The notes beneath the pieces are model-generated. The model saw only the letters and a program-made list of their open reading frames with translations. It was not told the DNA's origin and searched no databases. This document shows positions 14,775 through 64,000 of a DNA stretch of 64,000 nucleotides, one piece after another. The translations under genes were made by a program, and so were the position numbers. Location of the stretch: positions 16,986 to 80,985 of the forward strand of contig JBLHNG010000001.1 in NCBI GenBank assembly GCA_047621685.1. The letters run 5' to 3'. Within the stretch, counting starts at the first letter, position 1. Each line of letters begins with the position of its first letter. The DNA is from Myxococcota bacterium (GTDB lineage: Bacteria; Myxococcota_A; UBA796).

Positions 14775-14781
14775 TCAAGTC

Positions 14782-30902: not shown

Positions 30903-32096
30903 TTAGCCAGCAATGTTCCACGTGGAACACACCACATGCAGCGCATGCAGTCCCGCCAGAAGACGCCGACCAGCAGCAGTGGGCTGGCCCTTCTCAGCAA
31001 CAGTAGCCAGCCCACGGGCGTTGCTCTCCAGCACCGCATCCCGCCGACGACGAAAGTGCGGAGTCTGACTGATCGGATGCCCAAGCGCCTCCAGGCGGGC
31101 ATGCATCGCCGCGACCGGAACGAAGGCATGAGCAGCCAGAAGCACGCCGGACAGCGGACGGAGGTCTGGCCGAACCGGAGAAGCGGTCCACTCGCTTCGA
31201 CCGTTCTTGAGCACCGGATCCAGCCACATCAGCGTGTTCAGCCGACTGTGCTGGGTCTCATGCACGATCGCTTCGGCCAGGGTCAGCGGATCGGGGTGTA
31301 GCGTCATCCAGGCCACCCCCGGGGCCTCCAGGTAGGACGCTGACAGGTGCATCTCCGCCTCAAAGCCCACCGGCACCAGCCGCTCCAGGCTCAGCGGAAG
31401 CTCTCGCCACCACTCCGGCAGGGCCACCGCAATCAGCGCCAGCGCCTCAGACAGCGCAGCCACCCACTCCGTCGCAGCCTTCCCGCCCAGGCTCACCGCG
31501 TTGCCAGCTTTGTCGGGGTGGTCTTCGAGCATCGAGAGCGGGTTGGTGTCCCGGGTGCTGAGGTGCAGTCGGGGGAGGTCGGGGTGCAGCGGGTGGTAGG
31601 GGCGGCGGGCGTCTTGGGGCGGGACGGAGAGCCGGGTGCCGTCGGCCAGGGCCAGCGACAGCCCGCTCGGATCGGCGACCACCACTGAGAGCGGTGCATC
31701 GATGGCGAAGCCCAGCCGCGGTGCGGACAGCCCCGGAGCGGGGTGGTCCCAGAGGATCGCCTCGGTGAGCGCACGGGCGGGCAGGGCAGCGAGGAGGTCT
31801 GGGCCGACAGCGGCGAGCTGGGCGATCGCATCGACCTGGGGGTGCGCCAGCGACAGCAGGCGCGGCAGCACATCGGGGGCACCGATGGCGGAGAGGGTGG
31901 CAGCCGGGTGGCGTCGGGCGGTGTCGGTGAGCACCGGACGCAGTCGAATCAGCGCACTTCGCAGTGTCGGCGGAAGGCCATCGAGGGGCCAGGTCAGCAG
32001 CCGACGCAGGGCCAGGAGGCGAACCTTACGCACGAGCCGGGGCCAGGAGCTGTCCGATGCCGGGAGCGTGAGAAAGGCGGAGGGGAGGTCGAGCAT
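30903..32096 (-). CDS. HExxH-motif protein, aKG-HExxH-type peptide beta-hydroxylase-like (TIGR04267-like)
   Basis: LAEAIVHETQHSRLNTLMWLDP motif in a ~400-aa soluble protein, transcribed divergently from a radical SAM operon. That context is typical of this family as I recall it. Confidence 0.7.
   Translation of the reverse strand: MLDLPSAFLTLPASDSSWPRLVRKVRLLALRRLLTWPLDGLPPTLRSALIRLRPVLTDTARRHPAATLSAIGAPDVLPRLLSLAHPQVDAIAQLAAVGPDLLAALPARALTEAILWDHPAPGLSAPRLGFAIDAPLSVVVADPSGLSLALADGTRLSVPPQDARRPYHPLHPDLPRLHLSTRDTNPLSMLEDHPDKAGNAVSLGGKAATEWVAALSEALALIAVALPEWWRELPLSLERLVPVGFEAEMHLSASYLEAPGVAWMTLHPDPLTLAEAIVHETQHSRLNTLMWLDPVLKNGRSEWTASPVRPDLRPLSGVLLAAHAFVPVAAMHARLEALGHPISQTPHFRRRRDAVLESNARGLATVAEKGQPTAAGRRLLAGLHALHVVCSTWNIAG
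30910..30931. promoter_or_regulatory. Copy A of 22-bp motif GCAATGTTCCACGTGGAACACA (perfect 16-bp palindrome TGTTCCACGTGGAACA at 30914..30929)
   Basis: Identical 22-mer also at 50253..50274. Read directly. Confidence 0.4.
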
Positions 32097-32150
32097 GGCG
32101 GCTTTATATCAGCCGACCCCGACAGCCCGAGGCAAGGCGTTGTGATACCG

Positions 32151-33482
32151 ATGGGTATGGATCACGCCGAGGAGAACCACCGCACCAAGGGGCTGACCCG
32201 GCTGACCATGGCCTGCAATGAGCGGTGTCCGTTCTGCAACGTGCCGATGGAGGACTACCCTCGCCTCACGCCGCCGGAGTCCGAGGTCCTCGCCGAGCTT
32301 CAGAGCTTCTTCGACAGCGGCGCGCAGACCCTGACCATCTCCGGTGGCGAGCCCACCCTGCTGAGGCGCCGGCTGCTGTCGCTGGTCGACAAGGCGCGGC
32401 AGGGCGGCATCCGCTCCATTGAGCTGCAGACCAACGCTGTGCTGATCGATGGGGCCTACGCGACAGATCTCGCTGAGGCTGGGCTGACCAGTGCGTTCGT
32501 CTCGCTGCTCTCTGAGAGCGCTGAGCTGCACGACCACCTCGCTGGCCTCCCCGGCGCCTTCCCCCGGTGCCTCGCGGGCATCGACGCGCTGATCGCGGCG
32601 GGGGTGTCCGTGACGCTCAACCCGGTCATCGCCTCTGCGACCCAGGCGCGGGTCGTGGACTACATGCGCTTCGTCGTGCAGCGCCTGCCGGCAGTGCGCT
32701 CGATCTCCCTGTCCGCAGTGCAGCCCCATGGCCGGGCCGCCGACAACCTCGATCTCCTGCCCGACTACGGCGTGCTCGCTCAGCAGCTTCCGGAGGCCCG
32801 ACAGGTCGCTCAGGCTGCTGGGGTCACCGTGCTCAACCCCTACTGCGGGCTGCCGCTGTGCGTGGGCTGGAGCGGTGACCTGGGGCAGTGTGTGGAGGCC
32901 GCAGAGGCCCGTGACGGCGGCTGGCGGGCGCGTCCAGGCATCGACAACCAGGGCAACAAGTCCCACGGCGCGGTGTGTGGTCCCTGCGTGCTGCGTCCCT
33001 GGTGTGGTGGCGCCTGGCATGCCTACTGGCAGCATCGGGATGGCGCGGGCATCGCACCCCCGGCCGAGCGGATCCCGCCGTGGCGTGCTGGAGCCTCGAC
33101 GGCCCCCTGGCAGTCGGTGGTCTCCGCGCCCGGTGGCTTGACCGATGCCGCTCGGACCGCACTTCAGTCCGCCGAGACCCCGACGATCTGGCTGTGGACG
33201 GATCGGCTGACCCGGGCAGATGTCGTGCCGCTGCTGACCTCCCGCTGCACTGCGGTGGGGCTGGAGGTGGTGGCTGACGGGCTGGCCTCCGGTGCTCGCC
33301 CCGACTGGCTCCGTCCGCTGCGGGCGCTGCTCCGTGGTGGCTGTGCGGCCCACCTCGCGGTGCGTCGGCCGCTGCTGGCAGGGGATCGTCAAGCGCTGGC
33401 AGCGCTGGCGGACCGGCTCGGGGTGACCGGAGTCGATGTGCTTCCCGAGAGACAGCATGCTTCCAGCACGGCAGGGGCCTGA
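32151..33482 (+). CDS. Radical SAM protein with partial SPASM/twitch-like C-terminal Cys motif (rSAM1)
   Basis: LTMACNERCPFCNV (CxxxCxxC), ISGGEPTLL, ELQTNAVLI, CGPCVLRPWCGG. Start taken at ATG 32151 (GTG 32142 is also possible). Confidence 0.85.
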   Translation: MGMDHAEENHRTKGLTRLTMACNERCPFCNVPMEDYPRLTPPESEVLAELQSFFDSGAQTLTISGGEPTLLRRRLLSLVDKARQGGIRSIELQTNAVLIDGAYATDLAEAGLTSAFVSLLSESAELHDHLAGLPGAFPRCLAGIDALIAAGVSVTLNPVIASATQARVVDYMRFVVQRLPAVRSISLSAVQPHGRAADNLDLLPDYGVLAQQLPEARQVAQAAGVTVLNPYCGLPLCVGWSGDLGQCVEAAEARDGGWRARPGIDNQGNKSHGAVCGPCVLRPWCGGAWHAYWQHRDGAGIAPPAERIPPWRAGASTAPWQSVVSAPGGLTDAARTALQSAETPTIWLWTDRLTRADVVPLLTSRCTAVGLEVVADGLASGARPDWLRPLRALLRGGCAAHLAVRRPLLAGDRQALAALADRLGVTGVDVLPERQHASSTAGA

Positions 33483-33483
33483 C

Positions 33484-34947
33484 ATGAGACAGCGACTTCC
33501 CCAGCCGATGTGGGTCGACATCGGCGGCACGACCCGAAGCCCCGAGCGTCTGGATGTGGTGCCGGCCCCAGCGCGCTCCACGGAAGGCCTCCGCAGTGAC
33601 ATCGCCGCCGCCGGGCGTCACTGGATGCTCACCGGCGGCGAGCCCACCCTGCGTGCAGACCTCTTAGCGCTGCTCTCCGGTGGCGGAATCCGCACCGACG
33701 GCCTCCTCCTCAGCCGCCCTGATGCCCTCGCCACCCTCCAGCGCGCCGGACTGAAGCGCGTGCGCATTCGCATCCACAGCAGCCGTCCCGACGCCCACGA
33801 CTGGCTCTCTGGAACGAAGGGCTCGCTTCGGCACGCCCTGAGGGGGCTCCAGGCATGCACCCGCGCGGGGATTCCCGCGGAGGTCGAGATCGTGCTCACC
33901 CGACCCACCATCGGCCACCTCGACGAGACCGTCGCTCTGGTGACCCGGCTGGGTGCTCGGGGGGTGGCGCTGCGTCGGCTCACCGCTCAGGGGACTGCAG
34001 CGGCGGACTTCATCGCCCTCTCCCCGCGCCTCGGTCTGCTGAGTGCCCCCCTGGAGGATGCAATGGCCGCAGCGGATGCGGCTGGTGTTCCGGCCTGGAC
34101 TGAGGGAGTGCCGACCTGCATGGCGCCCGCCTCTCGGCTGCGAGCGACGCCGACCGGGCGCACTCCGGGATGTGCAGACTGCCCGGCGGACTGCCCCGGC
34201 TACCCAACCGACTACGCAGAGCGCTTCGGGCTCGCGGAGCTGTGGCGGGTGGCTGGAGCGCCGTCCCGGGAGCAGATCCGGGTGGTGATCTCCCCAGACG
34301 AGGCCACCCGGGATGTCCGCCGACGCCTGGTCGCTGCTGCAATGTGTCGTCCAGAGACCCTGCGGGTGGTCGGGGCCGCATCTCACCCCGCACGGTCCGA
34401 CCTGCTGCGAGAGCTGCTGCGCCTGTCGGTCTCCAGTGTCGAGCTGTGTGGAGTGATGGATGGGCTCGCCACCCTCTCCGGGGCTGATCAGCTCCGGCTG
34501 CGTGGATTTGCCCGCATCGACGCCGCCCTCCTCGGCAGCACCGCAGCAACCCACGATGCCGCGGTCGGTCGTCCCGGTGCGTTTGATGCGGTGAAGCAGC
34601 TGCGCAATGTGACGTGTTACGGCATCGTGCGATCCGCTGAAGAGGCCGCTGCGTTCGTCTCCACAGGGGTCACCGATCTGAGGCTCGCCGAGCCGGGCGG
34701 CACCCTCACCTCGCTGTCTGGCATCGCCGCGCTGGCCCCTCTGATCCCGCCTTGTCTTGGTGGCAGCGGCAGCAGCCCGCCCCCTGCCGAGGACTTTCAC
34801 GGCTCCACCCCCGCCGGTCGGCAGGGCTGCTCCACAGACCGCATCGGCGCCACCACCCCCTGCCCCCACGCCGCGCGCTGTTCCGCAGCCGATCGCTGCC
34901 CGGGGCTCGCGGTTGGCTGGGATGCAGAAGGCGTGACACCGCTGTGA
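33484..34947 (+). CDS. Radical SAM-fold paralogue lacking the CxxxCxxC motif (rSAM2, probably catalytically degenerate)
   Basis: Retains MLTGGEPTLRADL, RIRIHSSRPDAHDWLSGTKGSL and CADCPADCPG. The N-terminal 60 aa contain no Cys (MWVDIGGTTRSPERL replaces the cluster loop). ATG lies 1 nt after the rSAM1 stop. Confidence 0.7.
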   Translation: MRQRLPQPMWVDIGGTTRSPERLDVVPAPARSTEGLRSDIAAAGRHWMLTGGEPTLRADLLALLSGGGIRTDGLLLSRPDALATLQRAGLKRVRIRIHSSRPDAHDWLSGTKGSLRHALRGLQACTRAGIPAEVEIVLTRPTIGHLDETVALVTRLGARGVALRRLTAQGTAAADFIALSPRLGLLSAPLEDAMAAADAAGVPAWTEGVPTCMAPASRLRATPTGRTPGCADCPADCPGYPTDYAERFGLAELWRVAGAPSREQIRVVISPDEATRDVRRRLVAAAMCRPETLRVVGAASHPARSDLLRELLRLSVSSVELCGVMDGLATLSGADQLRLRGFARIDAALLGSTAATHDAAVGRPGAFDAVKQLRNVTCYGIVRSAEEAAAFVSTGVTDLRLAEPGGTLTSLSGIAALAPLIPPCLGGSGSSPPPAEDFHGSTPAGRQGCSTDRIGATTPCPHAARCSAADRCPGLAVGWDAEGVTPL

Positions 34948-35008
34948 TGCTGCCACTCACCCTGGAGACAGAGGGCAAGTGGCCCCCACCTGCGATAGGA
35001 TCCGCTCA

Positions 35009-36814
35009 ATGAACCTTCGCGACACGATGCTGGAGCGCGAGCAGATCGCCAACCGCCGCAAGCACTGGGTGCGTGCAGTCACCGCCTGCAACAGCCGCTG
35101 TGTGTTCTGCCTGGACATGGACACCCCCCGCAACGTCTTCCTGCCCATCGAGGAGGTCCAGGCGGAGCTGCAGCGCGGTCGGGAGGAGCTGGACGCCGAC
35201 AAGGTGATCATCTCCGGCGGCGAGGCATCGCTGCATCCGTCGTTCCACGAGCTGGTCCGCTATGGACGCAGCATCGGCTACGACCGGGTCCAGACCGTCA
35301 CCAACGGCTGGAACTTCGCCGAGCGGGACTTCTACCGAGAGGCCATGGCTGCCGGGCTCGGCGAGATCACCTTCAGCCTCCACGGCCACACCGCCGAGCT
35401 GCACGACCGGCTCACTCGCCACCACGGCTCGTTTGCCCGGCTGATGAAGGGCATGATCCGGGCCATCCGCGATCCCCGCGGCCCGATCGTCAACGTCGAT
35501 GTGGTGATCAACAAGCAGAACGTCGGGGTGCTCGACCGCATCATCGAGCTGTGCATCTCCGTCGGCGTGACTGAGTTCGACCTGCTCCATGTCATCCCGC
35601 AGTCTGAGGCATACCGGAATCGTGAGGACCTGTTTTACGATGTTCGCGACCACATGGACGTGCTGCATCGGGTCTTCCGACTCAACCGCCATCCCCGGCT
35701 GGTGATCTGGACCAATCGCTTCCCGATCTCCTACCTGGAGGGGCTCGAAGACCTCATCCAGGACCCCCACAAGATGCTCGACGAGGTCAACGGCCGCCGC
35801 TTCCAGGTCCGCCGCTATCTCGACACCGGCGAGCCCCTCGACTGCCGCCAGCAGGAGCGGTGCGTGCACTGCTTCATCGAGCCGTTCTGCACCACCATGG
35901 ACCGGGTCATCACCACCCAGCACGCCGGGGGCTTCGAGGTGTGGCAGGGCGAGACACAGGGAGAGGATGCGGGTGAGCTGCCGTTTGGCTGCACCCGCTG
36001 GGGACAGACCGCCGCCTCCTGGGACGACGTGCAGTGGCCGGATGTCGGCGGGCTGGAGCTGACCGGAATGGCCGCTGAGCCCATCCCCCGGGCGCTGCCG
36101 GTTCCGGTTCGGATGATCGCCGATCACCCCGACCAGCTCACCGCCTGGCTGAGCGGTCCGCTGCCAGCGCTCGTCGAGGTCGAGGTGGTGCTCAACCAGG
36201 TGACCGCCCCCTGGCTGATGAAGCACCGCGAGACACTGCTCCCACTGCTCGACAGCCTCCGCATTCACCAGCCCTCCCACACGAAGCTGGCCGGGGCCAT
36301 GAAGCAGGATGTCCGCAATCCAGGTGGATTCTTCACCCGACTCGCGCTGCCGATCCGGGTCAGCGGTCTGCCCGCCTGCCTCACCACTGGTGCGGTGGTG
36401 GTCTCGCCCGTTGCTCGCCTCAGTCCGGCCCTGTTCGACCCCGAGCTGGGCCGCCTGGACTCCCGGGCACTCTCTGAGCACCACATCGAGCAGAACTACC
36501 GGGCGAAGTCCGAGCGCTGTCGGGATTGTGCAGTGACCAACGCCTGTGACGGCATCCACGTCAACATGATCCGCGACCAGGGGCTCGCCCTCGCCCGCCC
36601 CCTCGCGCAGGCCCCTGCCGTACACCCGCCCATCGGGGTTCGCATCGCCGAGGGCTGTCCCCCGCTGCCCCCCGCAGAGAGCCTGCCTGGGTTCGCGCCC
36701 CCCCAGGCCCCACCCCGCGATCCCCTCTCCGTCATGGCCGAGCAGATAGACGCCCGCCGCGAGGCCAAACGGGTGGCCCGGAAGAAGATGCTCGCTGATG
36801 CAAGGGAGAGCTGA
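35009..36814 (+). CDS. Radical SAM protein with two SPASM-like Cys motifs (rSAM3)
   Basis: VTACNSRCVFCLD, ISGGEASL, FSLHGHTAELHDRLTRHHGSF, CVHCFIEPFC, CRDCAVTNACDG. Alternative GTG start at 34979. Confidence 0.85.
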   Translation: MNLRDTMLEREQIANRRKHWVRAVTACNSRCVFCLDMDTPRNVFLPIEEVQAELQRGREELDADKVIISGGEASLHPSFHELVRYGRSIGYDRVQTVTNGWNFAERDFYREAMAAGLGEITFSLHGHTAELHDRLTRHHGSFARLMKGMIRAIRDPRGPIVNVDVVINKQNVGVLDRIIELCISVGVTEFDLLHVIPQSEAYRNREDLFYDVRDHMDVLHRVFRLNRHPRLVIWTNRFPISYLEGLEDLIQDPHKMLDEVNGRRFQVRRYLDTGEPLDCRQQERCVHCFIEPFCTTMDRVITTQHAGGFEVWQGETQGEDAGELPFGCTRWGQTAASWDDVQWPDVGGLELTGMAAEPIPRALPVPVRMIADHPDQLTAWLSGPLPALVEVEVVLNQVTAPWLMKHRETLLPLLDSLRIHQPSHTKLAGAMKQDVRNPGGFFTRLALPIRVSGLPACLTTGAVVVSPVARLSPALFDPELGRLDSRALSEHHIEQNYRAKSERCRDCAVTNACDGIHVNMIRDQGLALARPLAQAPAVHPPIGVRIAEGCPPLPPAESLPGFAPPQAPPRDPLSVMAEQIDARREAKRVARKKMLADARES

Positions 36815-37872
36815 TGGCCAACCTCGGCTACCTCCAGCTCACCCGCAACTGCGTCCAGCGCTGCCGGTTCTGCAGCAACCCGCCCACCGGGGTCGAGCTG
36901 ACCGAGCCCCAGATGCGGGGCCTCATCGATGAGCTGGTCGACCTGGGCTACGACGGGGTCATCCTGACCGGCGGCGAGCCCAGCTACTCCCCGCTGCTGT
37001 TCCCCGCCCTGAAGTACGCCACCGAGAAGGGGCTGTACAACCGGATGATCACCAACGGGCAGCGTCTCGCGGAGCCGGACTTCTTCCAGAAGTGCGTCGA
37101 TGCCGGGCTGTCCCACATCCACGTCTCGCTGCACTCCTGCCGTCGGGAAGTCCACGACTACATCACCCGCTACCCCGGGGCCTATGATGTGCTCGTCCGC
37201 TGCCTGGAGTTGGTGCCGAAGATGGGCATCACCTGTGACATCAACACGGTAATAAACACGTATAACGCTGATCATCTCCATGAGACGGTCCAGTGGCTCT
37301 GTGAGCGGTTCCCGTTCATCCGCCACTTCGTCTGGAACAACATGGACCCGGACGGCAACCGCGCGGAGGACAACCCCGACTGCATCGCGTTTCACCATGA
37401 GTTCCAGGTCAGCCTGGAGCTGGCGATGGACTACCTCTCCCGCACCGGACGCACCTTCCGGGCCGAGCGGGTTCCGCTGTGCTTCATGCGGCGCTACGCC
37501 CACTGCTCGACTGAGACCCGCAAGATCGTCAAGGAGGAGGAGCGCTGCATCCAGTTCCTCGACAACAAGGGCTTCGTCCACCAGCTGGAATTCCTGCACG
37601 GCAAGGGAGACGCCTGCAATGCGTGCCGCTGGGACGGCATCTGTGCAGGCATGTTCTCGATGGCGCGGACTTTCGATGAGCGGGAGCTGTCGCCGATCTT
37701 CGAGGATCCCCTCCCGGTCATTCGGGCGGTGCTCGGAGAGGAGCCCACCCCGGCCCTTCTGGAGCGGATCGAGGCCAGGAAGGGGCGCCGAAGCACCACC
37801 GAGCAGCCCGACGAAGAGACGCGGGGTGCGTACCGGATGCTGCCGCTGTTCCGCTCAGCGGTGAGAGAGTAG
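36814..37872 (+). CDS. Radical SAM protein with SPASM-like Cys motif (rSAM4)
   Basis: LTRNCVQRCRFCSN, LTGGEPSY, ITNGQRL, VSLHSCRREVHDYITRYPGAY, CNACRWDGICAG. ATG overlaps the rSAM3 stop (TGATG). Confidence 0.85.
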   Translation: MANLGYLQLTRNCVQRCRFCSNPPTGVELTEPQMRGLIDELVDLGYDGVILTGGEPSYSPLLFPALKYATEKGLYNRMITNGQRLAEPDFFQKCVDAGLSHIHVSLHSCRREVHDYITRYPGAYDVLVRCLELVPKMGITCDINTVINTYNADHLHETVQWLCERFPFIRHFVWNNMDPDGNRAEDNPDCIAFHHEFQVSLELAMDYLSRTGRTFRAERVPLCFMRRYAHCSTETRKIVKEEERCIQFLDNKGFVHQLEFLHGKGDACNACRWDGICAGMFSMARTFDERELSPIFEDPLPVIRAVLGEEPTPALLERIEARKGRRSTTEQPDEETRGAYRMLPLFRSAVRE

Positions 37873-56594: not shown

Positions 56595-56607
56595 TACCTT
56601 CCCCGGC

Positions 56608-58410: not shown

Positions 58411-59369
58411 TCGTCGACCTTCGACAGACCGCCGCGCTTTCGCAGCCACAGCTCCATGCCCTCTCGGCCCGCCAGTGCTGTGGCGAGTCTGGTCAGCAGT
58501 GCCGGGGTCGCGAGGGTGGTGAGGTCACCGAGCGCGGCAAAGTCCCCGGAAGTCAGCACTGCGGCCACCGCCTCAAGCTCGTCGACGTCTGCGGTGATGA
58601 CCACCTCATCATCTTCTGCTAACGACGCCTCTCGACCGGCCTTGCCCTCTCGCCAGGCCGCCAGCGCGAGGGCAAGCCCAGCTCGGGATACCCCGTCGAA
58701 CTCCCCGCGAAGCCACAGCCCCTCGGTGGAGATCGGGGCGCGGTCGGGGGCGTCCTCGGAGACTGTGAGGCCCCGGTTCCTGAGATCGGCGAGGGTCGCT
58801 GGGCTCAGGGCGCTCCGCCGAATCCCGACCGCGTCGATGTGTGCTCCGGTGACGTCTGCCATGAGCAGGTCCGCCCACTTCAGGTCCACTCCTCGCAGGT
58901 CCGCGCCGCGCAGGGTGGCACTCCGCATCCGGGCGCGCTGGAGGTTGGCGCCATTGAGGCTGGCGCTGGCGAGGTTGGCCCCCTGGAGGACGGCCAGCTG
59001 AGCGCGCGCCTGGTTCAGCTCGGCGAAGCGCAGGTCGGCCCCGGCGAGCACTGCGCCCTCCAGCTGGGCGCTGTGCAGGCGAGTGTTGCGCAGGTCGGCG
59101 TCGTTGAGCTTCGCCCCCTGGAGATTGGCCCGGCTGAGCTGAGCACCAGACAGGATGGCGCCGCGGAGATCGGCTCCGAACAGATTGGCCCCGGTGAGGG
59201 TCGCCCCGGACAGGTCGGCTCCCCTCAGGTCGGTGTTTCGCAGCGCGGCGGTGGAGAAGTCGAGTCCCCGAACCGGGCGTCTGGCGGAGAGGTAGCTGAG
59301 GAGGAGCTTTCCCTTCTCTTCGACATTGAGGTGGGAGCCGGGCACAGGTAGGGAGTCGTCGTACAACAC
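58404..59369 (-). CDS. Pentapeptide repeat protein
   Basis: Long run of A(D/N)LxG-type pentapeptides (LRGADLSGATLTGANLFGADLRGAILSGAQLSRANLQGAKL...). Confidence 0.85.
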   Translation of the reverse strand: MLYDDSLPVPGSHLNVEEKGKLLLSYLSARRPVRGLDFSTAALRNTDLRGADLSGATLTGANLFGADLRGAILSGAQLSRANLQGAKLNDADLRNTRLHSAQLEGAVLAGADLRFAELNQARAQLAVLQGANLASASLNGANLQRARMRSATLRGADLRGVDLKWADLLMADVTGAHIDAVGIRRSALSPATLADLRNRGLTVSEDAPDRAPISTEGLWLRGEFDGVSRAGLALALAAWREGKAGREASLAEDDEVVITADVDELEAVAAVLTSGDFAALGDLTTLATPALLTRLATALAGREGMELWLRKRGGLSKVDDY

Positions 59370-59518
59370 AGTGTCCTTGGATGCAGCCGTTACACTATGC
59401 GGCTCACAGGAGTCCTCAACATGAAATCACCGGGTCCATTCCACCTGAACACCACGCGGCTCGTCCTCGGTCGAGGCTCTCAGGCCACCACAAAAGCCGT
59501 AACACCGGGGCGCGAGCG

Positions 59519-60694
59519 ATGAGGGCCATGCTCGGGGATCGCAGTCTGTTCCCGGACCTCTCCTGGGAGGTCTACCTCAACCACGCTGCGATCTCTCCGC
59601 CCTCCACCCCGGTCCTCCAGGCTGCAGCAGCGGTGTCGCAGTCCTATGCATCACAGGGTGTTACGGCATTCCCGATTTGGATGGAGTCCCGGGAGGTTCT
59701 GCGTGGAAAGCTCGCCCGCCTCATCCATGCCGCACCCGAAGACATTGCCCTGACTGCCAACACCACCGCCGGGGTGATCGCGGTGGCCAATTGTTTCCCG
59801 TGGAACAATGGGGACGGTGTGGTGGTGTTCTCTGGGGAGTTTCCCACCAACGTCACCCCCTGGCAGCAGGCTGCGCGCAGCTTCGGGCTTCGGCTCACTC
59901 AGCTCTCCCTGGATGGCTTCGGGGATGGCAGCGGCGCTGGGCTGGCTCGGCTGGAGGCGGCGCTGAAGCAGGGCGTGGTGCTGGTGGCGGTCAGCGCGGT
60001 GCAGTTCCAGACCGGACTGGCCATGCCGATCAAGGCGATGGCCGACCTCGCCCACCGCTACGGTGCTCAGCTGTTCGTGGATGGCATCCAGGCGGTCGGT
60101 GCGGTCGAGCTGGATGCACGCGATGTGGACTACCTCGCTGTTGGCTCTCACAAGTGGCTGATGGGCATCGAGGGCTGTGGGTTCCTCTACGTTCATCCCG
60201 ATCGCATCGGCGCGTTGGTGCCGCGCATGGCCGGCTGGTTGTCCCATGACGACGGGCTCGGTTTCTTGTTCAACGGCGCGGGACACCTCCGCTATGACCG
60301 GCCGATTCGCCGTCGGGCCGACTTCTTAGAGGCCGGGGCATACAACTCGGCGGGCTTCCAGGCGCTGCTCGCCTCGGTGTCTCTCATCGAACACCTTGGT
60401 GTTACGGCGATCTTTGCGCACATCACCGCCTACCTCGACGCCCTGGAGCTCGGCCTGCTCGCCCAGGGCTTCACCAGCCTTCGAGCACCCGATCCCGCTG
60501 CGCGCTCGGGCATCCTCAGTGTGCTTCCGCCAGAAGGGGTGGATCTCCTCCAGCTCGCTGAGGCCCTCGCCGCTCGTGGCATCGGGGTGACCACTCCTGA
60601 CGGGCGCCTGCGGTTCTCGCCACACTGGCCCAACAGCCTCGATGAGGTCCCGGTGGTTCTGGCGGCAACCGAGGCCGCGATCAGATCGGCGTGA
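59519..60694 (+). CDS. Class V aminotransferase / cysteine desulfurase-like PLP enzyme
   Basis: YLNHAAISP, ALTANTT, and SHKWLMG (PLP-Lys context). The 3' end overlaps the convergent rSAM gene by 14 nt. Confidence 0.8.
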   Translation: MRAMLGDRSLFPDLSWEVYLNHAAISPPSTPVLQAAAAVSQSYASQGVTAFPIWMESREVLRGKLARLIHAAPEDIALTANTTAGVIAVANCFPWNNGDGVVVFSGEFPTNVTPWQQAARSFGLRLTQLSLDGFGDGSGAGLARLEAALKQGVVLVAVSAVQFQTGLAMPIKAMADLAHRYGAQLFVDGIQAVGAVELDARDVDYLAVGSHKWLMGIEGCGFLYVHPDRIGALVPRMAGWLSHDDGLGFLFNGAGHLRYDRPIRRRADFLEAGAYNSAGFQALLASVSLIEHLGVTAIFAHITAYLDALELGLLAQGFTSLRAPDPAARSGILSVLPPEGVDLLQLAEALAARGIGVTTPDGRLRFSPHWPNSLDEVPVVLAATEAAIRSA

Positions 60695-61721
60695 GCCCGT
60701 CGTCGCCCCAGATGTCCAGGTAGTTCTGCCAGACTCCCTCGCACAGGTCGGCCCGGGTGCAGGTGCTGCAGGCTTTGGGGTGGCCCTTGAGGTCGTGGCG
60801 CTTGCGGTCCTGCCAGTTGAATCGGGCGCGACCGCCGTCGATTCGGGTCACGCCGTCGACCTCACCGTCGCCGTGCTTGTCGCTTCGGATCGAGCAGTCC
60901 GTAGACAGGTCGCGGTACTCGCCCATGTACTTCTTCAGCAGCCGCTCGCTCCGGCGTAGCTCCACCGGCAGCACACAGAGGGGGAAGCCGCCGAAGGTGA
61001 AGGTCTTCTTGAAGTGGAACTCGTTGAGCAGGATCGCTTTCTGGAGGATGGGCACGACCTTGTCGTACTGTGGGGTCAGGGAGCGGCTGCCCTCGGCGTA
61101 GCCCTCGGGGCGCACGAAGTTGACCCGGATGTCATCCAGCTCCAGCTCATCATAGAAGAACCGCATCATCTTCGGCAGATAACGGTAGTTCCAGCCGTTC
61201 AGGACGACGTTGATGGCGAGCCCATCGGGCAGGTAGCCGGCGGCACGCTTGGTGTTGAGGTAGCGGATGGCGGTGCACTTCTTCTCGAAGTTGCCAGGCA
61301 CCCGGGTGAGCCGGTCTTCCAGCGAGGCGGTGTGGCCATGCATGGAGATGGTGATTCGGGTCAGCCCGGCGTCGAGGATGCGGTCGGTGAAGTGCGTGAG
61401 GCGCAGCTTGGTGGCGTTGGTGGCGATGGCGATGCGGGTGAAGCCGATCTCCTTGCCATAGGCCACGGACTGCACGATCTTCGGGTAGGTCGTGGGCTCT
61501 CCACCCAGAAAGCCCAGCGAGCGGTGCCCGGCTGCGTGCCACTGCCGGATCTCCGCCTGCATCTGGTCAAACGGCATGTAGCTGCGGTCTTCTTTCTTGG
61601 GCAGACCGTCGAGGCAGAACACGCAGCGGTTGTTGCACGCCTTGCCGATGTTGATCTCGACGTTGCGGCGGACATCCCGGAGGGGGTTGTACAGCTGGTT
61701 GGCGGGGTGTTCTTCAGCCAT
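60681..61721 (-). CDS. Radical SAM protein with SPASM-like Cys motif (rSAM-C, third maturase of the HxS operon)
   Basis: IGKACNNRCVFCLDG, LGGEPTT, IATNATKL, ISMHGHTASLEDRLTRVPGNF, CSTCTRADLCEG, C-terminal ...DGLTPI. Confidence 0.85.
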   Translation of the reverse strand: MAEEHPANQLYNPLRDVRRNVEINIGKACNNRCVFCLDGLPKKEDRSYMPFDQMQAEIRQWHAAGHRSLGFLGGEPTTYPKIVQSVAYGKEIGFTRIAIATNATKLRLTHFTDRILDAGLTRITISMHGHTASLEDRLTRVPGNFEKKCTAIRYLNTKRAAGYLPDGLAINVVLNGWNYRYLPKMMRFFYDELELDDIRVNFVRPEGYAEGSRSLTPQYDKVVPILQKAILLNEFHFKKTFTFGGFPLCVLPVELRRSERLLKKYMGEYRDLSTDCSIRSDKHGDGEVDGVTRIDGGRARFNWQDRKRHDLKGHPKACSTCTRADLCEGVWQNYLDIWGDDGLTPI

Positions 61722-61730
61722 AAGCTCAGC

Positions 61731-62690
61731 CTATCCCAGAATCGGGGTCAGATCGGTGGTCGGCCACTTGCGGGCATATTCGTCGAACACCCCCATGCAG
61801 ACGCCGCGAAGGGTGCAGCCCTCGCACTGCGCGACATGGACTCGCTTGCGGTCAGGTGCCCAGGAGTAGAGGCCCTCGAACTTCACCGAGCCGGGGTGAG
61901 CGGTCCACTCCACGGTCACCCGGGGATCCCAGTGCAGATCGTTGGACAGCGCGCGGTGGCTGCCCAGCAGGCACATCGGCACCCCGAAGAAGCGCAACAC
62001 GGCGGTCTCTGCGGCGGACACGGAGCGGGGCAGGACATCGGCGAGCACACTCAGCGGCACCGCGAGGTCTTCGTAGGCATCGAGCCCTGCGCCCTCGGGG
62101 GTGGTGTTGGAGACCACGATGAGCTTCGCGCCCAGCGAGTCCGCCAGGGCGATGGTCTCGGGGAGCTTCTCAGCATTGTGACGGGTGATCACGGTGTTGA
62201 TGAAGGCTCCGAAGTCTCCTCGAAGCGCGATACAGCGGCGGATTGCCTCGGTGACCCGGTCGAAGCTGCCCTCGCGGCGGGCGAGGGCGTCGTGGGTGGC
62301 GGCATCTGGGCCGTGCAGGGAGAACAGGCCCTCGTCGAGGTACTCGATGACCGTCTCTGCGAAGCCTGGTCGGGACAGCATGGTGCCGATGGTGCCGATG
62401 GAGGTGCGCATCCCCAGCTTCTTGGACAGCCGGAGGACGTCGAGAAAGCGGGGGTGTATCGTCGGCTCACCGCCGGTGAAGTGCACCCCGTCTCCGCCCC
62501 GGGCCGCATGTCGACGCAGCACGGTCGCCGCCCGCCCCCAGGTCACCGGGAAGCGCTTGAAGCGCTCCATCCGGTGCTCCTCGGAGCAGAACACGCAGCG
62601 CTCCGGGCAGGTGTAGGTCAGGTGCAATTCCAGCCGGCGCATGATCTGACCCTCAGGGCCGATCCAGGGAGTGAGGTTCTGCTCGGTCAT
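61731..62690 (-). CDS. Radical SAM protein with SPASM-like Cys motif (rSAM-B)
   Basis: LTYTCPERCVFCSE, FTGGEPTI, FSLHGPDAATHDALARREGSF, CEGCTLRGVCMG, C-terminal ...TDLTPI. ATG 62690 overlaps the upstream stop (ATGA). Confidence 0.85.
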   Translation of the reverse strand: MTEQNLTPWIGPEGQIMRRLELHLTYTCPERCVFCSEEHRMERFKRFPVTWGRAATVLRRHAARGGDGVHFTGGEPTIHPRFLDVLRLSKKLGMRTSIGTIGTMLSRPGFAETVIEYLDEGLFSLHGPDAATHDALARREGSFDRVTEAIRRCIALRGDFGAFINTVITRHNAEKLPETIALADSLGAKLIVVSNTTPEGAGLDAYEDLAVPLSVLADVLPRSVSAAETAVLRFFGVPMCLLGSHRALSNDLHWDPRVTVEWTAHPGSVKFEGLYSWAPDRKRVHVAQCEGCTLRGVCMGVFDEYARKWPTTDLTPILG

Positions 62691-63649
62691 GCCGCTCCCC
62701 TCCGCTTTCGATAGGCACGCAGCGCGGGGTAGAGCCCGCGACACAGCCGGGTCAGCTCTGCATCGACCGCCATGGTGGACTGCCACACCTTCTCTGGGAG
62801 GTGAGTCGCCAGCAGCCCGTTGATCGCCTCGGCTTTCTCGGCGAGGGCCTCGGGAGTGGGCGGGTCATCGAGGGTGCCGATGGTGGTCTGATCGCGGAGG
62901 TGGTCCAGGGTGCCGGAGAGCCCGACATTGGAGGGGTGGATGGTGCGGTCGGAGTCGACCACGAAGCCGGTGTTGAAGAACGGGGTGGGTGCCTGGGTGA
63001 ACAGGTTTCGCAGGTAGAAGTGTCGACCGGAGCGCCAGCGATCCTCGATGATCCCTCGGATGGCGTCGAAGGAAGCCGCCAGCGCGGCGAGCTGGTGGGT
63101 CTTCCAGGGGATGTAGTAGCCGGGGAGCAGGTTGAACCGGTAGAATCCAAGCGACAGCAGGTGGCTCAGGTTGTCGGCGGCCCGGCTGGCGGTGGCGGGC
63201 GGGATGGTCTGGGTGATGACCAGCCGGGTGAGGGTGAGCAGCGACTCACGCAGGGTCATCAGGTGGTCGTAGGCGTCCGCGACTCCAGGCAGTGCCCGAC
63301 GCATTCGGCGGTGATCTTCGGGCGCACCGTCCATGGAGATGGTCAGGATTCCCTTCTTGTAACCTCGGAGATACTCGATCCACTCCGGCGTGAGGCCGAG
63401 ACCGTTGGTGGAGAGGTAGACCCGCCGGATCTCCGGACGATCTCGGGCGGCCTCCATCGCGGCCCGGACCACCTCAGGGACCAGCAAGGGCTCGCCGCCA
63501 AACAGCTTGACGTCACCGCCGCCGTATCGATCGGCGAACAGAGACACCGCCAGCCGGGCGTCGTCCGGTGTCAGGGAGGGCCAGCCGTCTTTTGCCGTGG
63601 GGCAATACGAGCAGCGGAGGTCACAAGCCCGGGTGACGGTGAGAATCAC
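62687..63649 (-). CDS. Radical SAM protein without C-terminal Cys cluster motif (rSAM-A, first maturase after the HxS precursor)
   Basis: VTRACDLRCSYCP (CxxxCxxC), LFGGEPLL, LSTNGLGL, ISMDGAPEDHRRMR. GTG start 12 nt after, and in the same frame as, the precursor stop. Confidence 0.85.
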   Translation of the reverse strand: MILTVTRACDLRCSYCPTAKDGWPSLTPDDARLAVSLFADRYGGGDVKLFGGEPLLVPEVVRAAMEAARDRPEIRRVYLSTNGLGLTPEWIEYLRGYKKGILTISMDGAPEDHRRMRRALPGVADAYDHLMTLRESLLTLTRLVITQTIPPATASRAADNLSHLLSLGFYRFNLLPGYYIPWKTHQLAALAASFDAIRGIIEDRWRSGRHFYLRNLFTQAPTPFFNTGFVVDSDRTIHPSNVGLSGTLDHLRDQTTIGTLDDPPTPEALAEKAEAINGLLATHLPEKVWQSTMAVDAELTRLCRGLYPALRAYRKRRGAA

Positions 63650-63661: not shown

Positions 63662-64000
63662 TTACCACTGCCCGTGGGAGCCGTGGGAGCCATGGGAGCC
63701 GTGAGAGCCGTGAGAGCCGTGAGAGCCGTGGGAGCCGTGGGAACCATGAGAGCCATGAGAGCCGTGGGAACCATGAGAGCCGTGGGAACCATGAGAGCCA
63801 TGAGAGCCATGGGAGCAGTGAGAGGCATGAACCACGCCGGCGGTCGCTGGATCCGCGAGCAGGGCATCGGCCTTCAGCAGCAGCTCGCCGGAGTGATCCT
63901 TGCGGCAGGCCTGCTGGCGCTCAGATGCCTGGAGGTGGTCGGTGGCTTTGCGGGTGAGGGTGGGCAGCTTGGGAGCAGCCTTCTCGGTCCTGGTGCTGTC
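63662..64000 (-). CDS. His-Xaa-Ser repeat protein (HxsA-like RiPP-type precursor), 5'-truncated by the window edge; absent from the ORF track
   Basis: Manual translation of the minus strand (codons phased on 63662): ...KAAPKLPTLTRKATDHLQASERQQACRKDHSGELLLKADALLADPATAGVV-HAS-HCS-(HGS)x15-HGQW-TAA. The frame is open to base 64000. All inter-repeat nucleotide differences are synonymous in this frame only. Confidence 0.75.
   Translation of the reverse strand, partial: DSTRTEKAAPKLPTLTRKATDHLQASERQQACRKDHSGELLLKADALLADPATAGVVHASHCSHGSHGSHGSHGSHGSHGSHGSHGSHGSHGSHGSHGSHGSHGSHGSHGQW
63677..63829. repeat. 17 tandem 9-bp units encoding HxS triplets
   Basis: + strand units [ga]ga-[ga]c[ca]-[ga]tg, counted one by one: 15 HGS, 1 HCS, 1 HAS. 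Confidence 0.95.

What the first reader, a model, noticed from the sequence alone, without database searches (positions are those of the whole stretch)
60681..63649. Three tightly coupled radical SAM genes immediately downstream of the HxS precursor: a variant His-Xaa-Ser maturation operon
The precursor stop (63662) is followed 12 nt later, in the same frame, by the GTG start of rSAM-A (63649). The rSAM-A stop and rSAM-B start overlap as ATGA (62687..62690). rSAM-C starts 9 nt after the rSAM-B stop.

All three carry a CxxxCxxC motif (CDLRCSYC, CPERCVFC, CNNRCVFC) and GGEP. rSAM-B and rSAM-C also carry a CxxCxxxxxC.G auxiliary-cluster-like motif, which rSAM-A lacks.

The Hxs system as I recall it has two rSAM enzymes (HxsB, HxsC) plus HxsD. 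Here there are three rSAM paralogues, and no protein with the HxsD-type LLNDYxLRE motif is visible in the window. It could still lie upstream of 64000.

A class V aminotransferase/cysteine desulfurase-like gene converges on the operon with a 14-nt overlap (60681..60694).
Basis: partly seen in the sequence, partly recalled or inferred. Interest (0 to 1): 0.85.

Follow-up and report, generated by a model that had tools for sequence, protein, structure and literature searches.

The report
Extra radical-SAM genes of HxsA4 system
The three radical-SAM genes are real and lie at the downstream end of a widely conserved but uncharacterised Myxococcota operon (HxsD, HxsD-like, HxsB, HxsA4 precursor, then these three enzymes) that most likely modifies a His-Gly-Ser repeat peptide; it is an expanded variant of the His-Xaa-Ser system recently shown to block phage DNA entry in E. 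coli.

Summary

The precursor reading frame is open to the window edge. It is a ~116-aa HxsA4 protein (NCBIfam NF038313, above cutoff), not a 57-aa peptide.

In relatives with longer contigs the operon reads: TAT-signal protein, HxsD, HxsD-like, HxsB, HxsA4, rA, rB, rC. HxsD and HxsB are therefore not missing; they should lie just beyond position 64000.

Across 80 species-level loci, mostly Myxococcota MAGs:
- HxsA4 precedes rA in 63 of 67 loci.
- rB follows rA in 71 of 75 loci.
- rC follows in 44 of 69 loci.
- The aminotransferase is present in only 2 of 38 loci, so it is not a conserved component.

None of the three enzymes reaches the HxsC or HxsC4 cutoffs. rB and rC are distant HxsC-type paralogues with four invariant extra cysteines. 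rA has a CteB/anSME-like fold without auxiliary-cluster cysteines.

The window also holds a second module at 30.9-37.9 kb: an aKG-HExxH peptide hydroxylase plus four HxsC-like rSAM genes. Orthologues of this module flank the operon in other genomes.

Verdict: a new, unpublished variant of a known kind. The chemistry and the biological role remain unknown.

The parts
63662..64000 (-). HxsA4 precursor, truncated by the window edge (about 4 N-terminal codons missing). It has a ~57-aa leader without a signal peptide, then HAS-HCS-(HGS)15-HGQW. The repeat-coding DNA spans 63672-63830.
   Evidence: The frame is open to position 64000. NF038313 HxsA4 scores 72.3 bits against a cutoff of 55. The sequence is nearly identical to the 116-aa L013 protein, which scores 79.2 bits. 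The tandem repeat has a 9-nt period in 17 copies. The same architecture occurs in 73 homologues, with HGQW at the C-terminus in 72 of them.
62687..63649 (-). rSAM-A (rA), 320 aa. CxxxCxxC begins at residue 9, so there is no N-terminal peptide-binding domain. It has no auxiliary-cluster cysteines.
   Evidence: PF04055 scores 68 bits. The best NCBIfam hit is PapB at 71.6 bits (cutoff 340); HxsB scores 32.7. The AF2 model has pLDDT 89. Foldseek top hits are CteB, anSME, ChlB, SkfB and SuiB, with TMq 0.64-0.78. Among 185,579 species genomes, 121 stretches encode a relative.
61731..62690 (-). rSAM-B (rB), 319 aa, translationally coupled to rA through an ATGA overlap. It is an HxsC/HxsC4-like paralogue with a CxxCx5C C-terminal motif.
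   Evidence: PF04055 scores 70 bits. HxsC4 scores 78.9 (cutoff 500) and HxsC 62.6 (cutoff 267.9). C28, C32, C35, C240, C289, C292 and C298 are invariant in 75 of 75 sequences. rB follows rA in 71 of 75 loci.
60681..61721 (-). rSAM-C (rC), 346 aa. It is the most HxsC4-like of the three and has a CxxCx5C C-terminal motif.
   Evidence: HxsC4 scores 129.4 bits over its full length (cutoff 500); HxsC scores 65.4. Invariant cysteines are C29, C33, C36, C249, C276, C318, C321 and C327. rC follows rB in 44 of 69 loci. In one assembly it is unlinked but present in the same genome. The AF2 model has pLDDT 82.
59381..60694 (+). Class-V aminotransferase / cysteine-desulfurase-like gene converging on rC. 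It is a lineage-specific neighbour and probably not part of the system. The true start is probably downstream, because homologues are 391 aa.
   Evidence: PF00266 scores 126 bits. SufS scores 103 bits, far below its cutoff of 475. An orthologue lies within 10 kb in only 2 of 38 fully flanked loci. Homologues are called at 391 aa.
30903..32096 (-). aKG-HExxH-type peptide beta-hydroxylase, divergent from the second rSAM cluster.
   Evidence: TIGR04267 scores 97.6 bits against a cutoff of 40. The HETQH motif is present. Homologues lie within 10 kb of the Hxs4 operon in 25 of 79 other loci.
32151..33482 (+). Cluster-2 rSAM 'c2a', HxsC-like. The longest ORF starts at 31743, but the likely start is 32151.
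   Evidence: PF04055 scores 61 bits. HxsC scores 90.6 (cutoff 267.9). It contains CNERCPFC, GGEP and CxxCx5C.
33436..34947 (+). Cluster-2 'c2b': a degenerate rSAM-like protein with GGEP but no CxxxCxxC.
   Evidence: PF04055 scores 35.6 bits over a partial match. HxsC scores 48 bits. The motif scan found no CxxxCxxC.
34979..36814 (+). Cluster-2 rSAM 'c2c', 611 aa, HxsC4/HxsC-like.
   Evidence: HxsC4 scores 86.3 and HxsC 75.5. Its orthologue scores 610 bits to the gene directly upstream of the Hxs4 operon in L060 and 497 bits to the gene downstream of rC in L089. It lies within 10 kb of the operon in 18 of 38 loci. An orthologue is also present in the unrelated HxsA4 locus L098.
36814..37872 (+). 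Cluster-2 rSAM 'c2d', 352 aa, HxsC-like.
   Evidence: HxsC scores 87.2 (cutoff 267.9). It scores 608 bits to L060 and 462 bits to L089 orthologues that flank the operon. It lies within 10 kb in 14 of 38 loci. An orthologue is present in L098.

Best explanation
The three genes form the downstream half of an HxsA4-type His-Xaa-Ser peptide-maturation operon. This operon is conserved in a large group of mostly uncultured Myxococcota.

The full unit, seen intact in relatives, is: TAT-signal 165-aa protein, HxsD, HxsD-like 80-aa protein, HxsB (rSAM/SPASM), HxsA4 precursor, rA, rB, rC.

Proposed mechanism, with shown and inferred steps marked:
1. Shown: the precursor has a conserved ~60-aa leader (LPxLxRKPxxFLQ ... 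LLxKADxLLxDPxNxG) and a core of one HCS unit, then (HGS)n, then an invariant HGQW C-terminus.
2. Inferred from homology with the E. coli HXS system: HxsB and the HxsD/HxsD-like proteins recognise the leader and present the repeat core to the enzymes.
3. Inferred: rA, rB and rC take the place of the missing HxsC. Each cleaves SAM at its CxxxCxxC cluster and abstracts hydrogen from His, Ser or Gly positions of every repeat. rB and rC use a fully Cys-ligated auxiliary cluster (one upstream Cys plus CxxCx5C, the C-terminal motif that canonical HxsC also carries). rA is a cluster-less relative of the CteB/anSME/HxsB-type peptide maturases. Several non-redundant enzymes imply several chemical steps per repeat.
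4. Shown: stop/start overlaps and very short gaps (precursor to rA, rA to rB, rB to rC) couple translation of substrate and enzymes.
5. Inferred from gene neighbourhoods in other genomes: the second module in the window (aKG-HExxH hydroxylase plus four HxsC-like rSAM genes at 30.9-37.9 kb) acts on the same precursor. It is the only HxS-repeat ORF in the window.
6. Inferred: the conserved TAT-signal partner points to an extracytoplasmic destination.

The biological role is not established. It could be an HXS-like envelope barrier against phage DNA, or a metal- or redox-active poly-His product.
For: - The precursor is HxsA4, above the NCBIfam cutoff.
- The full operon is seen in close relatives L012-L014 (86% identity to rA). 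HxsD, HxsD_rel and HxsB there are all above their curated cutoffs.
- Across 80 species-level loci: HxsB 59/65, HxsD 55/59, HxsD_rel 51/59, TAT protein 54/58, HxsA4 63/67, rB 71/75, rC 44/69.
- A GTGA overlap joins the precursor and rA in 16 loci.
- The top NCBIfam hits for rB and rC are HxsC4 and HxsC.
- Canonical HxsC also ends in CxxCx5C.
- rB has four invariant extra cysteines in 75 of 75 sequences; rC has five.
- The nearest structures to rA are all peptide-modifying rSAM enzymes.
- HxsB in relatives is 36% identical to canonical HxsB over its full length.
- Orthologues of c2c and c2d directly flank the operon in other genomes and in an unrelated HxsA4 locus.
- HxsA4 loci in Omnitrophota and in two other lineages also carry 3 to 8 extra HxsC-like rSAM genes.
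Against: - No biochemical data exist for any HxsA4 system.
- HxsD and HxsB of this genome lie outside the window and are inferred from relatives.
- None of rA, rB or rC reaches a curated family cutoff. rC is only 23% identical to canonical HxsC, and rB gives no BLAST hit to it at E<=1e-3.
- rC is absent from the cluster in about a third of loci. It can sit alone next to rhamnose-biosynthesis and MMPL genes.
- Structural neighbours of rC include small-molecule enzymes: BlsE, MoaA and viperin.
- The 65-70% identity of rA and rC across the family is unusually high for RiPP tailoring enzymes.
- No leader protease or exporter is conserved in the cluster.
Confidence: 0.75

Rival explanations
1. The three rSAM enzymes, or at least rC, do not act on HxsA4. 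They instead make or modify a small molecule, cofactor, sugar or lipid, and are merely co-located or co-regulated with the Hxs genes.
For: - rC orthologues at ~70% identity occur as single genes between rmlABCD / GH92 genes and an MMPL transporter.
- The rSAM triad lies 5.7 kb from the HxsD-HxsB-HxsA4 module in L010. It lacks that module within 10 kb in L037 and L042.
- The best structural and PDB-sequence matches for rC are BlsE, GDGT-MAS and MoaA.
- Sequence conservation is very high.
Against: - The solo rC in assembly JACKEP01 coexists with an rA-rB pair on another contig of the same assembly, so its presence still tracks the system.
- rA is translationally coupled to the precursor by a stop/start overlap in 16 loci and is adjacent to it in 63 of 67 loci.
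- Structural neighbours of rA are exclusively peptide maturases at the top of the list.
- The best family hits for rB and rC are HxsC4 and HxsC.
- No small-molecule family cutoff is approached: MoaA scores 43-64 bits against cutoffs of 284-325, and PqqE scores 64 against 381.
Confidence: 0.1
2. In biological role, the operon is an antiphage defence system working like E. coli HXS. The matured HxsA4 would be exported to the envelope, where its poly-His repeats would hold incoming phage DNA.
For: - HxsB, HxsD and the HxS-repeat effector are homologous to the E. coli HXS components shown to block phage DNA entry (PMC13128918).
- A TAT-signal protein is conserved at the head of the operon.
- The genes flanking the operon differ between genomes, which is compatible with an accessory island.
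- Omnitrophota HxsA4 carries a hydrophobic, signal-like segment.
Against: - Myxococcota HxsA4 has no signal peptide and no peptidoglycan-binding domain.
- Its repeats are neutral HGS units rather than the basic-residue-rich units described for E. coli HxsA.
- The gene order and the rSAM set differ from the canonical system.
- PADLOC gives only weak, generic rSAM-core hits to pVip.
- No recognisable defence genes were seen in the window neighbourhood.
- 99.7% of canonical HXS systems are in Pseudomonadota.
Confidence: 0.25
3. The product is a metal-binding or redox-active species. It would be either a modified poly-His peptide or many copies of a small HGS-derived unit released from the repeat array, working in the periplasm with the TAT-exported partner.
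For: - The core is essentially (His-Gly-Ser)n, with n ranging from 5 to 58 between genomes. Such variation is expected if copy number only sets yield or capacity.
- Giant proteins with 7-12 MopE 'putative metal-binding' motifs lie next to the second module in the window. Homologues lie within 10 kb of the operon in 11-17 other genomes.
- CutA1, DsbD and thioredoxin genes lie beside the Omnitrophota locus.
- A MauG/MbnH-like di-haem enzyme is in the window.
Against: - All of this is circumstantial.
- MopE-motif repeat proteins may simply be common in these genomes; this was not tested, so the co-occurrence may be background.
- No conserved protease that could release repeat units is present; the M16 pair in the window is not conserved near other loci.
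- No metal transporter is present in the cluster.
Confidence: 0.2

Closest known systems
Canonical His-Xaa-Ser (HXS) system HxsD-HxsB-HxsC-HxsA (TIGR03976-03979; antiphage role shown in E. coli, PMC13128918)
   Same: - It has an HxS-repeat substrate protein.
- HxsB and HxsD orthologues are present: relatives score above the curated cutoffs, and HxsB is 36% identical over its full length to Aeromonas plasmid HxsB.
- More than one rSAM enzyme acts per substrate.
- rB and rC share the C-terminal CxxCx5C motif with HxsC.
   Different: - There is no HxsC orthologue. rB and rC score 63-65 bits against a cutoff of 267.9, are at most 23% identical, and lack HxsC's ~110-aa N-terminal domain.
- Three extra rSAM genes lie in the operon and four more HxsC-like genes plus a hydroxylase lie elsewhere in the window.
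- An extra HxsD-like protein and a TAT-signal protein are present.
- The gene order is D-Drel-B-A-rA-rB-rC rather than D-B-C-A.
- The precursor has 5-58 near-identical HGS units ending in HGQW, with no signal peptide and no peptidoglycan-binding domain. Canonical HxsA has about five basic-rich repeats.
- The host range is Myxococcota rather than Pseudomonadota.
NCBIfam 'type 4' Hxs models: HxsA4 (NF038313), HxsD_rel (NF038315), HxsC4 (NF038332, 'rare')
   Same: - The precursor scores above the HxsA4 cutoff in the window.
- In relatives, the precursor and the 80-aa protein score above the HxsA4 and HxsD_rel cutoffs respectively.
- rC aligns to HxsC4 over the whole model.
- An NCBI-named HxsA4 locus in Omnitrophota has the same HxsD-HxsD_rel-HxsB-HxsA4 core, followed by many HxsC-like rSAM genes.
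   Different: - rC scores 129 bits, rB 79 bits, and even the Omnitrophota paralogues at most 208 bits, against the HxsC4 cutoff of 500. None is HxsC4 itself.
- rA has no counterpart in the Omnitrophota locus.
- No paper describing HxsA4 or HxsC4 was found.
SPASM/twitch peptide-modifying rSAM maturases (CteB, anSME, SkfB, SuiB, PapB)
   Same: - The rA model superposes on CteB, anSME, ChlB and SkfB over ~300 residues, with TMq 0.64-0.78.
- Its best sequence-family hit is PapB and its best PDB sequence hit is CteB.
- rB and rC carry extra invariant cysteines consistent with one auxiliary cluster.
   Different: - rA lacks the auxiliary-cluster cysteines, having only one conserved C-terminal Cys.
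- rA has no N-terminal RRE-type domain; its CxxxCxxC begins at residue 9.
- No Pfam SPASM hit was found for any of the three.

Membership tests
Radical SAM superfamily (PF04055) | A CxxxCxxC cluster motif and the rSAM core domain above the Pfam gathering score | tested here: met
   rA scores 68, rB 70.1 and rC 65.4 bits against a cutoff of 29.5. The motifs are at residues 9, 28 and 29, and GGEP is present in all three.
Canonical His-Xaa-Ser system (Haft & Basu; TIGR03976-03979) | An HxS-repeat substrate protein | tested here: met
   There are 17 HxS units. The protein matches HxsA4 (NF038313) at 72.3 bits against a cutoff of 55. No canonical HxsA model appeared among its 6 listed matches at E<=0.01.
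Canonical His-Xaa-Ser system (Haft & Basu; TIGR03976-03979) | The HxsB maturase (TIGR03978, cutoff 370) | tested here: inconclusive
   No HxsB is inside the window; rA scores only 32.7 bits. In relatives, the gene directly upstream of the precursor scores 488.5 bits and is present in 59 of 65 loci. For this genome it is inferred to lie beyond position 64000.
Canonical His-Xaa-Ser system (Haft & Basu; TIGR03976-03979) | The HxsC maturase (TIGR03977, cutoff 267.9) | tested here: not met
   rB scores 62.6 and rC 65.4 bits; rA gives no hit. The cluster-2 genes score 48-91 bits. rC is 23% identical to Aeromonas HxsC, and rB gives no hit at E<=1e-3.
Canonical His-Xaa-Ser system (Haft & Basu; TIGR03976-03979) | The HxsD protein (TIGR03976, cutoff 50) | tested here: inconclusive
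   HxsD is not in the window. In relatives it scores 65.9 bits and hits PF27806. It is present in 55 of 59 loci.
Canonical His-Xaa-Ser system (Haft & Basu; TIGR03976-03979) | [quoted passage not shown] | tested here: not met
   The order is D-Drel-B-A4-rA-rB-rC. The HxsA4 leader is hydrophilic and has no additional domain, unlike canonical HxsA.
HxsA4-type system (NCBIfam NF038313, NF038315, NF038332) | The HxsA4 precursor and the HxsD_rel protein above their cutoffs | tested here: met
   HxsA4 scores 72.3 bits in the window and 79.2 in L013, against a cutoff of 55. HxsD_rel scores 53 against 41 in L013.
HxsA4-type system (NCBIfam NF038313, NF038315, NF038332) | The HxsC4 rSAM protein (cutoff 500) | tested here: not met
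   rC scores 129.4 and rB 78.9 bits. The paralogues of the Omnitrophota HxsA4 locus score at most 207.7.
SPASM/twitch-domain rSAM maturases | A C-terminal Cys-rich domain binding one or two auxiliary [4Fe-4S] clusters | tested here: inconclusive
   No PF13186 hit was found. rB has 4 invariant extra cysteines and rC has 5, including CxxCx5C. rA has none beyond a single Cys. Cluster binding itself cannot be tested with these tools.
Characterised non-peptide rSAM families (MoaA, PqqE, BlsE, AhbD, NirJ, viperin) | A score above the family's curated cutoff | tested here: not met
   All hits are 23-65 bits against cutoffs of 180-650.
Known antiphage defence systems (PADLOC-DB v2) | A specific match to a defence-system protein model | tested here: not met
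   Only partial pVip rSAM-core hits of 35-70 bits were found. HxsD, HxsD_rel, HxsA4 and the TAT protein gave nothing. The database predates the HXS paper, so this result does not exclude a defence role.

The most novel reading that the evidence does not exclude
A clade-wide Myxococcota pathway, with cousins in Omnitrophota and other phyla, uses HxsB plus up to seven HxsC-like radical-SAM enzymes and an aKG-HExxH hydroxylase. Together they process a ribosomally made (His-Gly-Ser)n array of freely varying length (5-58 units, always starting with HCS and ending with HGQW). The product would be a new kind of repeat-unit molecule: either a densely modified poly-His polymer, or many copies of a small HGS-derived cofactor or metallophore. 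Its chemistry would differ from that of any characterised RiPP.
Probability: 0.3. Interest if true: 0.85.

Novelty: new variant of a known kind. Interest (0 to 1): 0.62.

Why it matters
The chemistry of the His-Xaa-Ser family is still unsolved. For the E. coli system only a +8 Da change on one SHRSS motif has been reported, and it has not been assigned to an enzyme (PMC13128918).

The HxsA4 branch described here has features that could make the question more tractable:
- The substrate has 15-58 near-identical HGS units, so any modification should be amplified many-fold in MS or NMR.
- The pathway is split into separable enzymes (HxsB, rA, rB, rC, and the cluster-2 enzymes), which could be added one at a time.

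It also shows that the Hxs theme is far broader than the four-gene Pseudomonadota defence cassette. At least 121 species-level genomes carry the rA-type operon, and multi-rSAM HxsA4 loci occur in other phyla.

If the product is an envelope effector, the system extends a new defence principle to predatory and social bacteria. If the product is a cofactor or metal ligand, it would be a new class of peptide-derived molecule.

Tried and rejected
1. Read-through or fusion of the precursor with rA. The in-frame TAA and 12-nt gap suggested this. It is rejected because the spacing and frame vary between loci, and the commonest form is a GTGA overlap in a different frame.
2. The aminotransferase as a system component. 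It is rejected as a core part: orthologues lie within 10 kb in only 2 of 38 loci. The Aminotran_5 gene in the distant locus L099 is only a remote relative at 52 bits.
3. The M16 peptidase pair (45317-47747) and the MauG-like gene (43574-44863) as leader protease or modifier. They are not found near other loci. The MauG-like protein scores 85 bits against a cutoff of 340 for the Hxs-associated MauG family.
4. Filing rC under HxsC4, or rB/rC under HxsC. The scores are far below the cutoffs.
5. A defence-island reading through PADLOC. Only generic pVip core similarity was found.
6. Recovering the window's own contig beyond position 64000. The look-up returned only a 3.2-kb Logan contig that ends inside the repeat. 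The four nearest relatives (L002-L005) begin immediately upstream of rA, presumably for the same reason. The upstream genes had to be taken from relatives at 86% identity.
7. A second HxS precursor for the cluster-2 enzymes. None is present in the window.
8. The ORF downstream of c2d in L060 (x426) as a homologue of the window's HExxH gene. The two are unrelated.

Full report
**1. Observation**

- rA is 62687-63649: GTG start, 320 aa, motif CDLRCSYC at residue 9.
- rB is 61731-62690: 319 aa, motif CPERCVFC. Its ATG overlaps the rA stop as ATGA.
- rC is 60681-61721: 346 aa, motif CNNRCVFC. Its ATG lies 9 nt after the rB stop.
- All three carry GGEP.
- rB and rC carry CxxCxxxxxCxG; rA does not.
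- All three pass PF04055, and no other Pfam domain is found.
- The class-V aminotransferase ORF converges on rC with a 14-nt overlap.

Two details needed correction.
- The precursor frame is open all the way to position 64000. It reproduces the 116-aa protein MSNDDSTRTEK... of a close relative from that protein's residue 5 onward. The real precursor therefore starts about four codons outside the window.
- The precursor consists of a ~57-aa leader followed by HAS-HCS-(HGS)15-HGQW. The repeat DNA spans 63672-63830.
- The 12-nt in-frame gap between the precursor and rA is specific to this lineage. Among 79 precursor-to-rA junctions measured (the window and related loci), the commonest form is a GTGA stop/start overlap (16 loci), and all three frames occur.

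**2. What the genes are**

- The precursor scores 72.3 bits on NCBIfam HxsA4 (NF038313, cutoff 55).
- None of the three enzymes reaches any curated cutoff.
  - rC: HxsC4 129.4 bits (cutoff 500, aligned over the whole model); HxsC 65.4 (cutoff 267.9).
  - rB: HxsC4 78.9; HxsC 62.6.
  - rA: PapB 71.6 (cutoff 340); HxsB 32.7 (cutoff 370).
- Non-peptide families such as MoaA, PqqE, BlsE and AhbD are equally far below their cutoffs.
- Against a canonical HXS cassette from an Aeromonas plasmid, rC is 23% identical to HxsC and rB gives no BLAST hit at E<=1e-3. rA matches only the rSAM core of HxsB. Canonical HxsC also ends in CxxCx5C, the same motif as in rB and rC.
- In rB, C28, C32, C35, C240, C289, C292 and C298 are invariant in 75 of 75 sequences.
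- In rC, C29, C33, C36, C249, C276, C318, C321 and C327 are invariant.
- I infer one fully Cys-ligated auxiliary cluster in each of rB and rC.
- An AlphaFold model of rA (pLDDT 89) superposes best on CteB, anSME, ChlB, SkfB and SuiB. All are peptide-modifying rSAM enzymes (TMq 0.64-0.78).
- The rC model (pLDDT 82) gives less specific neighbours: BlsE, SuiB, MoaA and viperin.

**3. The full operon, from relatives**

- The window derives from an NCBI Myxococcota MAG. P0121 is 100% identical to rA and sits on an 88-kb contig. The look-up returned only a 3.2-kb contig that ends inside the repeat.
- The four nearest relatives (L002-L005) begin immediately upstream of rA, presumably because their assemblies also break in the repeat.
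- A relative at 86% identity (GCA_029251165.1; loci L012-L014) shows the whole unit: a 165-aa protein with a TAT signal, HxsD (147 aa), an 80-aa protein, a 500-aa rSAM protein, the 116-aa precursor, rA, rB, rC, then the convergent aminotransferase.
- The upstream proteins pass curated cutoffs: HxsD (TIGR03976) 65.9 against 50; HxsD_rel (NF038315) 53 against 41; HxsB (TIGR03978) 488.5 against 370; HxsA4 79.2 against 55.
The operon has four rSAM enzymes, not three.

**4. Conservation**

A scan of one genome per species (185,579 species) with an rA alignment found 121 relatives. The best 80 loci are almost all Myxococcota-type MAGs: Polyangiaceae, Sandaracinaceae and 'Deltaproteobacteria'. A few record titles carry implausible names.

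I mapped the components with phmmer and counted only loci with enough flanking sequence.

| Component | Position relative to rA | Loci with it |
|---|---|---|
| HxsB | upstream | 59/65 |
| HxsD | upstream | 55/59 |
| HxsD_rel | upstream | 51/59 |
| TAT-signal protein | upstream | 54/58 |
| HxsA4 | upstream | 63/67 |
| rB | downstream | 71/75 |
| rC | downstream | 44/69 |
| aminotransferase | within 10 kb | 2/38 |

- In assembly JACKEP01, rA-rB sit on one contig. rC sits alone on another, between rhamnose-biosynthesis and MMPL genes. rC can thus be unlinked yet retained in the same genome.
- In 73 homologues the precursor keeps a strict architecture: a leader with the motifs LPxLxRKPxxFLQ and LLxKADxLLxDPxNxG; a first HCS unit in most; (HGS)n with n from 5 to 58; and an HGQW C-terminus in 72 of 73.

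**5. A second module in the same window**

- Searching the window with the extra rSAM genes that flank the operon in other genomes revealed four tandem plus-strand genes at 32151-37872. I call them c2a to c2d.
  - c2a, c2c and c2d have CxxxCxxC and CxxCx5C.
  - c2b has lost the CxxxCxxC motif.
  - Their best NCBIfam hits are again HxsC or HxsC4, at 48-91 bits.
- A divergent gene at 30903-32096 is an aKG-HExxH-type peptide beta-hydroxylase (TIGR04267, 97.6 against cutoff 40).
- Orthologues of c2c and c2d lie directly upstream of the TAT gene in L060 and downstream of rC in L089. They lie within 10 kb of the operon in 18 and 14 of 38 loci respectively.
- Homologues of the hydroxylase lie near the operon in 25 of 79 loci.
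- The window contains only one HxS-repeat ORF. I infer that this module works on the same precursor.

**6. Wider family**

- An NCBI-named HxsA4 in Omnitrophota (L096) sits in a cluster of a 145-aa protein, HxsD, HxsD_rel, HxsB, a 325-aa protein and HxsA4, followed by at least seven more rSAM genes. None of those reaches the HxsC4 or HxsC cutoff either.
- Two further lineages (L098, L099) show the same core with three to six extra rSAM genes. L098 has clear c2c and c2d orthologues.
- Multiplication of HxsC-like enzymes is therefore a general property of HxsA4-type systems. The rA-rB-rC triad is the Myxococcota version.
- No paper mentions HxsA4 or HxsC4.
- The only functional study of any Hxs system is the 2026 E. 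coli work. There, HxsB, HxsC and HxsD mature a periplasmic, peptidoglycan-anchored HxsA that blocks phage DNA entry. The study reports a +8 Da change on one SHRSS motif and an HxsC-HxsD complex (PMC13128918).

**7. Mechanism**

Best-supported reading, confidence about 0.75: leader-guided, multi-enzyme radical-SAM maturation of HxsA4.
- HxsB and the two HxsD-type proteins recognise and present the peptide.
- rA, rB and rC replace HxsC and each perform a distinct hydrogen-abstraction-initiated step on every repeat.
- The cluster-2 enzymes and the hydroxylase add further steps.

What is shown directly: the gene content, the coupling, the conservation, the cluster motifs and the fold similarities.

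What is inferred: the substrate assignment, the division of labour between enzymes, and the extracytoplasmic destination suggested by the conserved TAT protein.

The biological role is open.
- An HXS-like phage barrier is possible (about 0.25). However, the Myxococcota precursor lacks a signal peptide, a peptidoglycan-binding domain and basic repeats, and PADLOC gives nothing specific.
- A metal- or redox-active product is equally speculative (about 0.2). It rests on the poly-His core, the free variation in repeat number, and neighbouring MopE-motif proteins.
- The rival that the three enzymes serve a non-peptide pathway (about 0.1) rests on solo rC genes and on rC's unspecific fold neighbours. 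It is contradicted by the stop/start coupling of rA to the precursor and by the Hxs-type best hits.

**8. Verdict**

- I rate it a new variant of a known kind, with moderately high interest.
- It offers a natural, repeat-amplified and enzyme-separable model for solving the unknown chemistry of His-Xaa-Ser maturation.

Noticed in passing
window 30903-37872: A second peptide-modification module: an aKG-HExxH beta-hydroxylase (minus strand) divergent from four tandem HxsC-like rSAM genes. One of the four (33436-34947) has lost its CxxxCxxC motif. Orthologues flank the Hxs4 operon in other genomes.
   Followed up: yes
window 22686-26774 and 26852-30451: Two giant proteins (1362 and 1199 aa) carry 12 and 7 'Cu-binding_MopE' putative metal-binding motifs, plus beta-helix / PMP repeats. 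Homologues lie within 10 kb of the Hxs4 operon in 11-17 other genomes. This could be a real association or simply background from a protein type that is common in these genomes (not tested).
   Followed up: partly
window 43574-44863 (-) and 45317-47747 (-): A MauG/MbnH-like di-haem peroxidase (137 bits to MauG; 85 bits to the 'His-Xaa-Ser system-associated MauG-like' family, cutoff 340) lies near a pair of M16 peptidase genes. Neither is conserved near other Hxs4 loci.
   Followed up: partly
L001-L005 (short-read contigs of close relatives): L001 demonstrably ends inside the HxS repeat DNA. L002-L005 begin immediately upstream of rA, at the position where the repeat should lie. The 9-nt-period repeat appears to be a systematic assembly breakpoint, so this operon is probably often split in metagenome assemblies.
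   Followed up: partly
L006-L009 versus L030 (assembly JACKEP01): An rC orthologue (~70% identity) sits alone between the rmlABCD / GH92 genes and an MMPL transporter. The rA-rB pair is on another contig of the same assembly.
   Followed up: partly
L024, L045, L098: Variants in precursor arrangement. L024 has the precursor (58 repeats) between rB and rC. L045 has two HxsA4 paralogues (19 and 42 repeats) and two copies of the TAT protein. L098 has two tandem precursors ending in HGSW.
   Followed up: no
L010 11035-14163; L023; L096 18040-20076: A very large (678-1042 aa) rSAM protein follows rC in some loci. It is similar to rA, HxsB and PapB, and the 1042-aa form in L010 also has a weak B12-binding hit. 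In the Omnitrophota locus a separate 738-aa B12-binding rSAM gene (L096 14898-17114) lies upstream of the 678-aa one.
   Followed up: partly
L012 6890-7387 (relative; expected beyond window position 64000): A 165-aa protein with a twin-arginine signal and no Pfam family heads the operon in 54 of 58 loci. It is a candidate periplasmic partner or carrier of the mature product.
   Followed up: partly
window 55677-59369: An Ada-like AraC/MGMT fusion (55677-56594), a 613-aa metallophosphoesterase (56569-58410) and a 321-aa pentapeptide-repeat protein (58404-59369) lie downstream of the operon. They are conserved only in the closest relatives.
   Followed up: partly
window 12416-15111 (-): A ribosomal protein S15-like ORF (14785-15111) lies upstream of a 708-aa ORF that is probably PNPase. 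This suggests an ordinary chromosomal context rather than a plasmid or phage.
   Followed up: no
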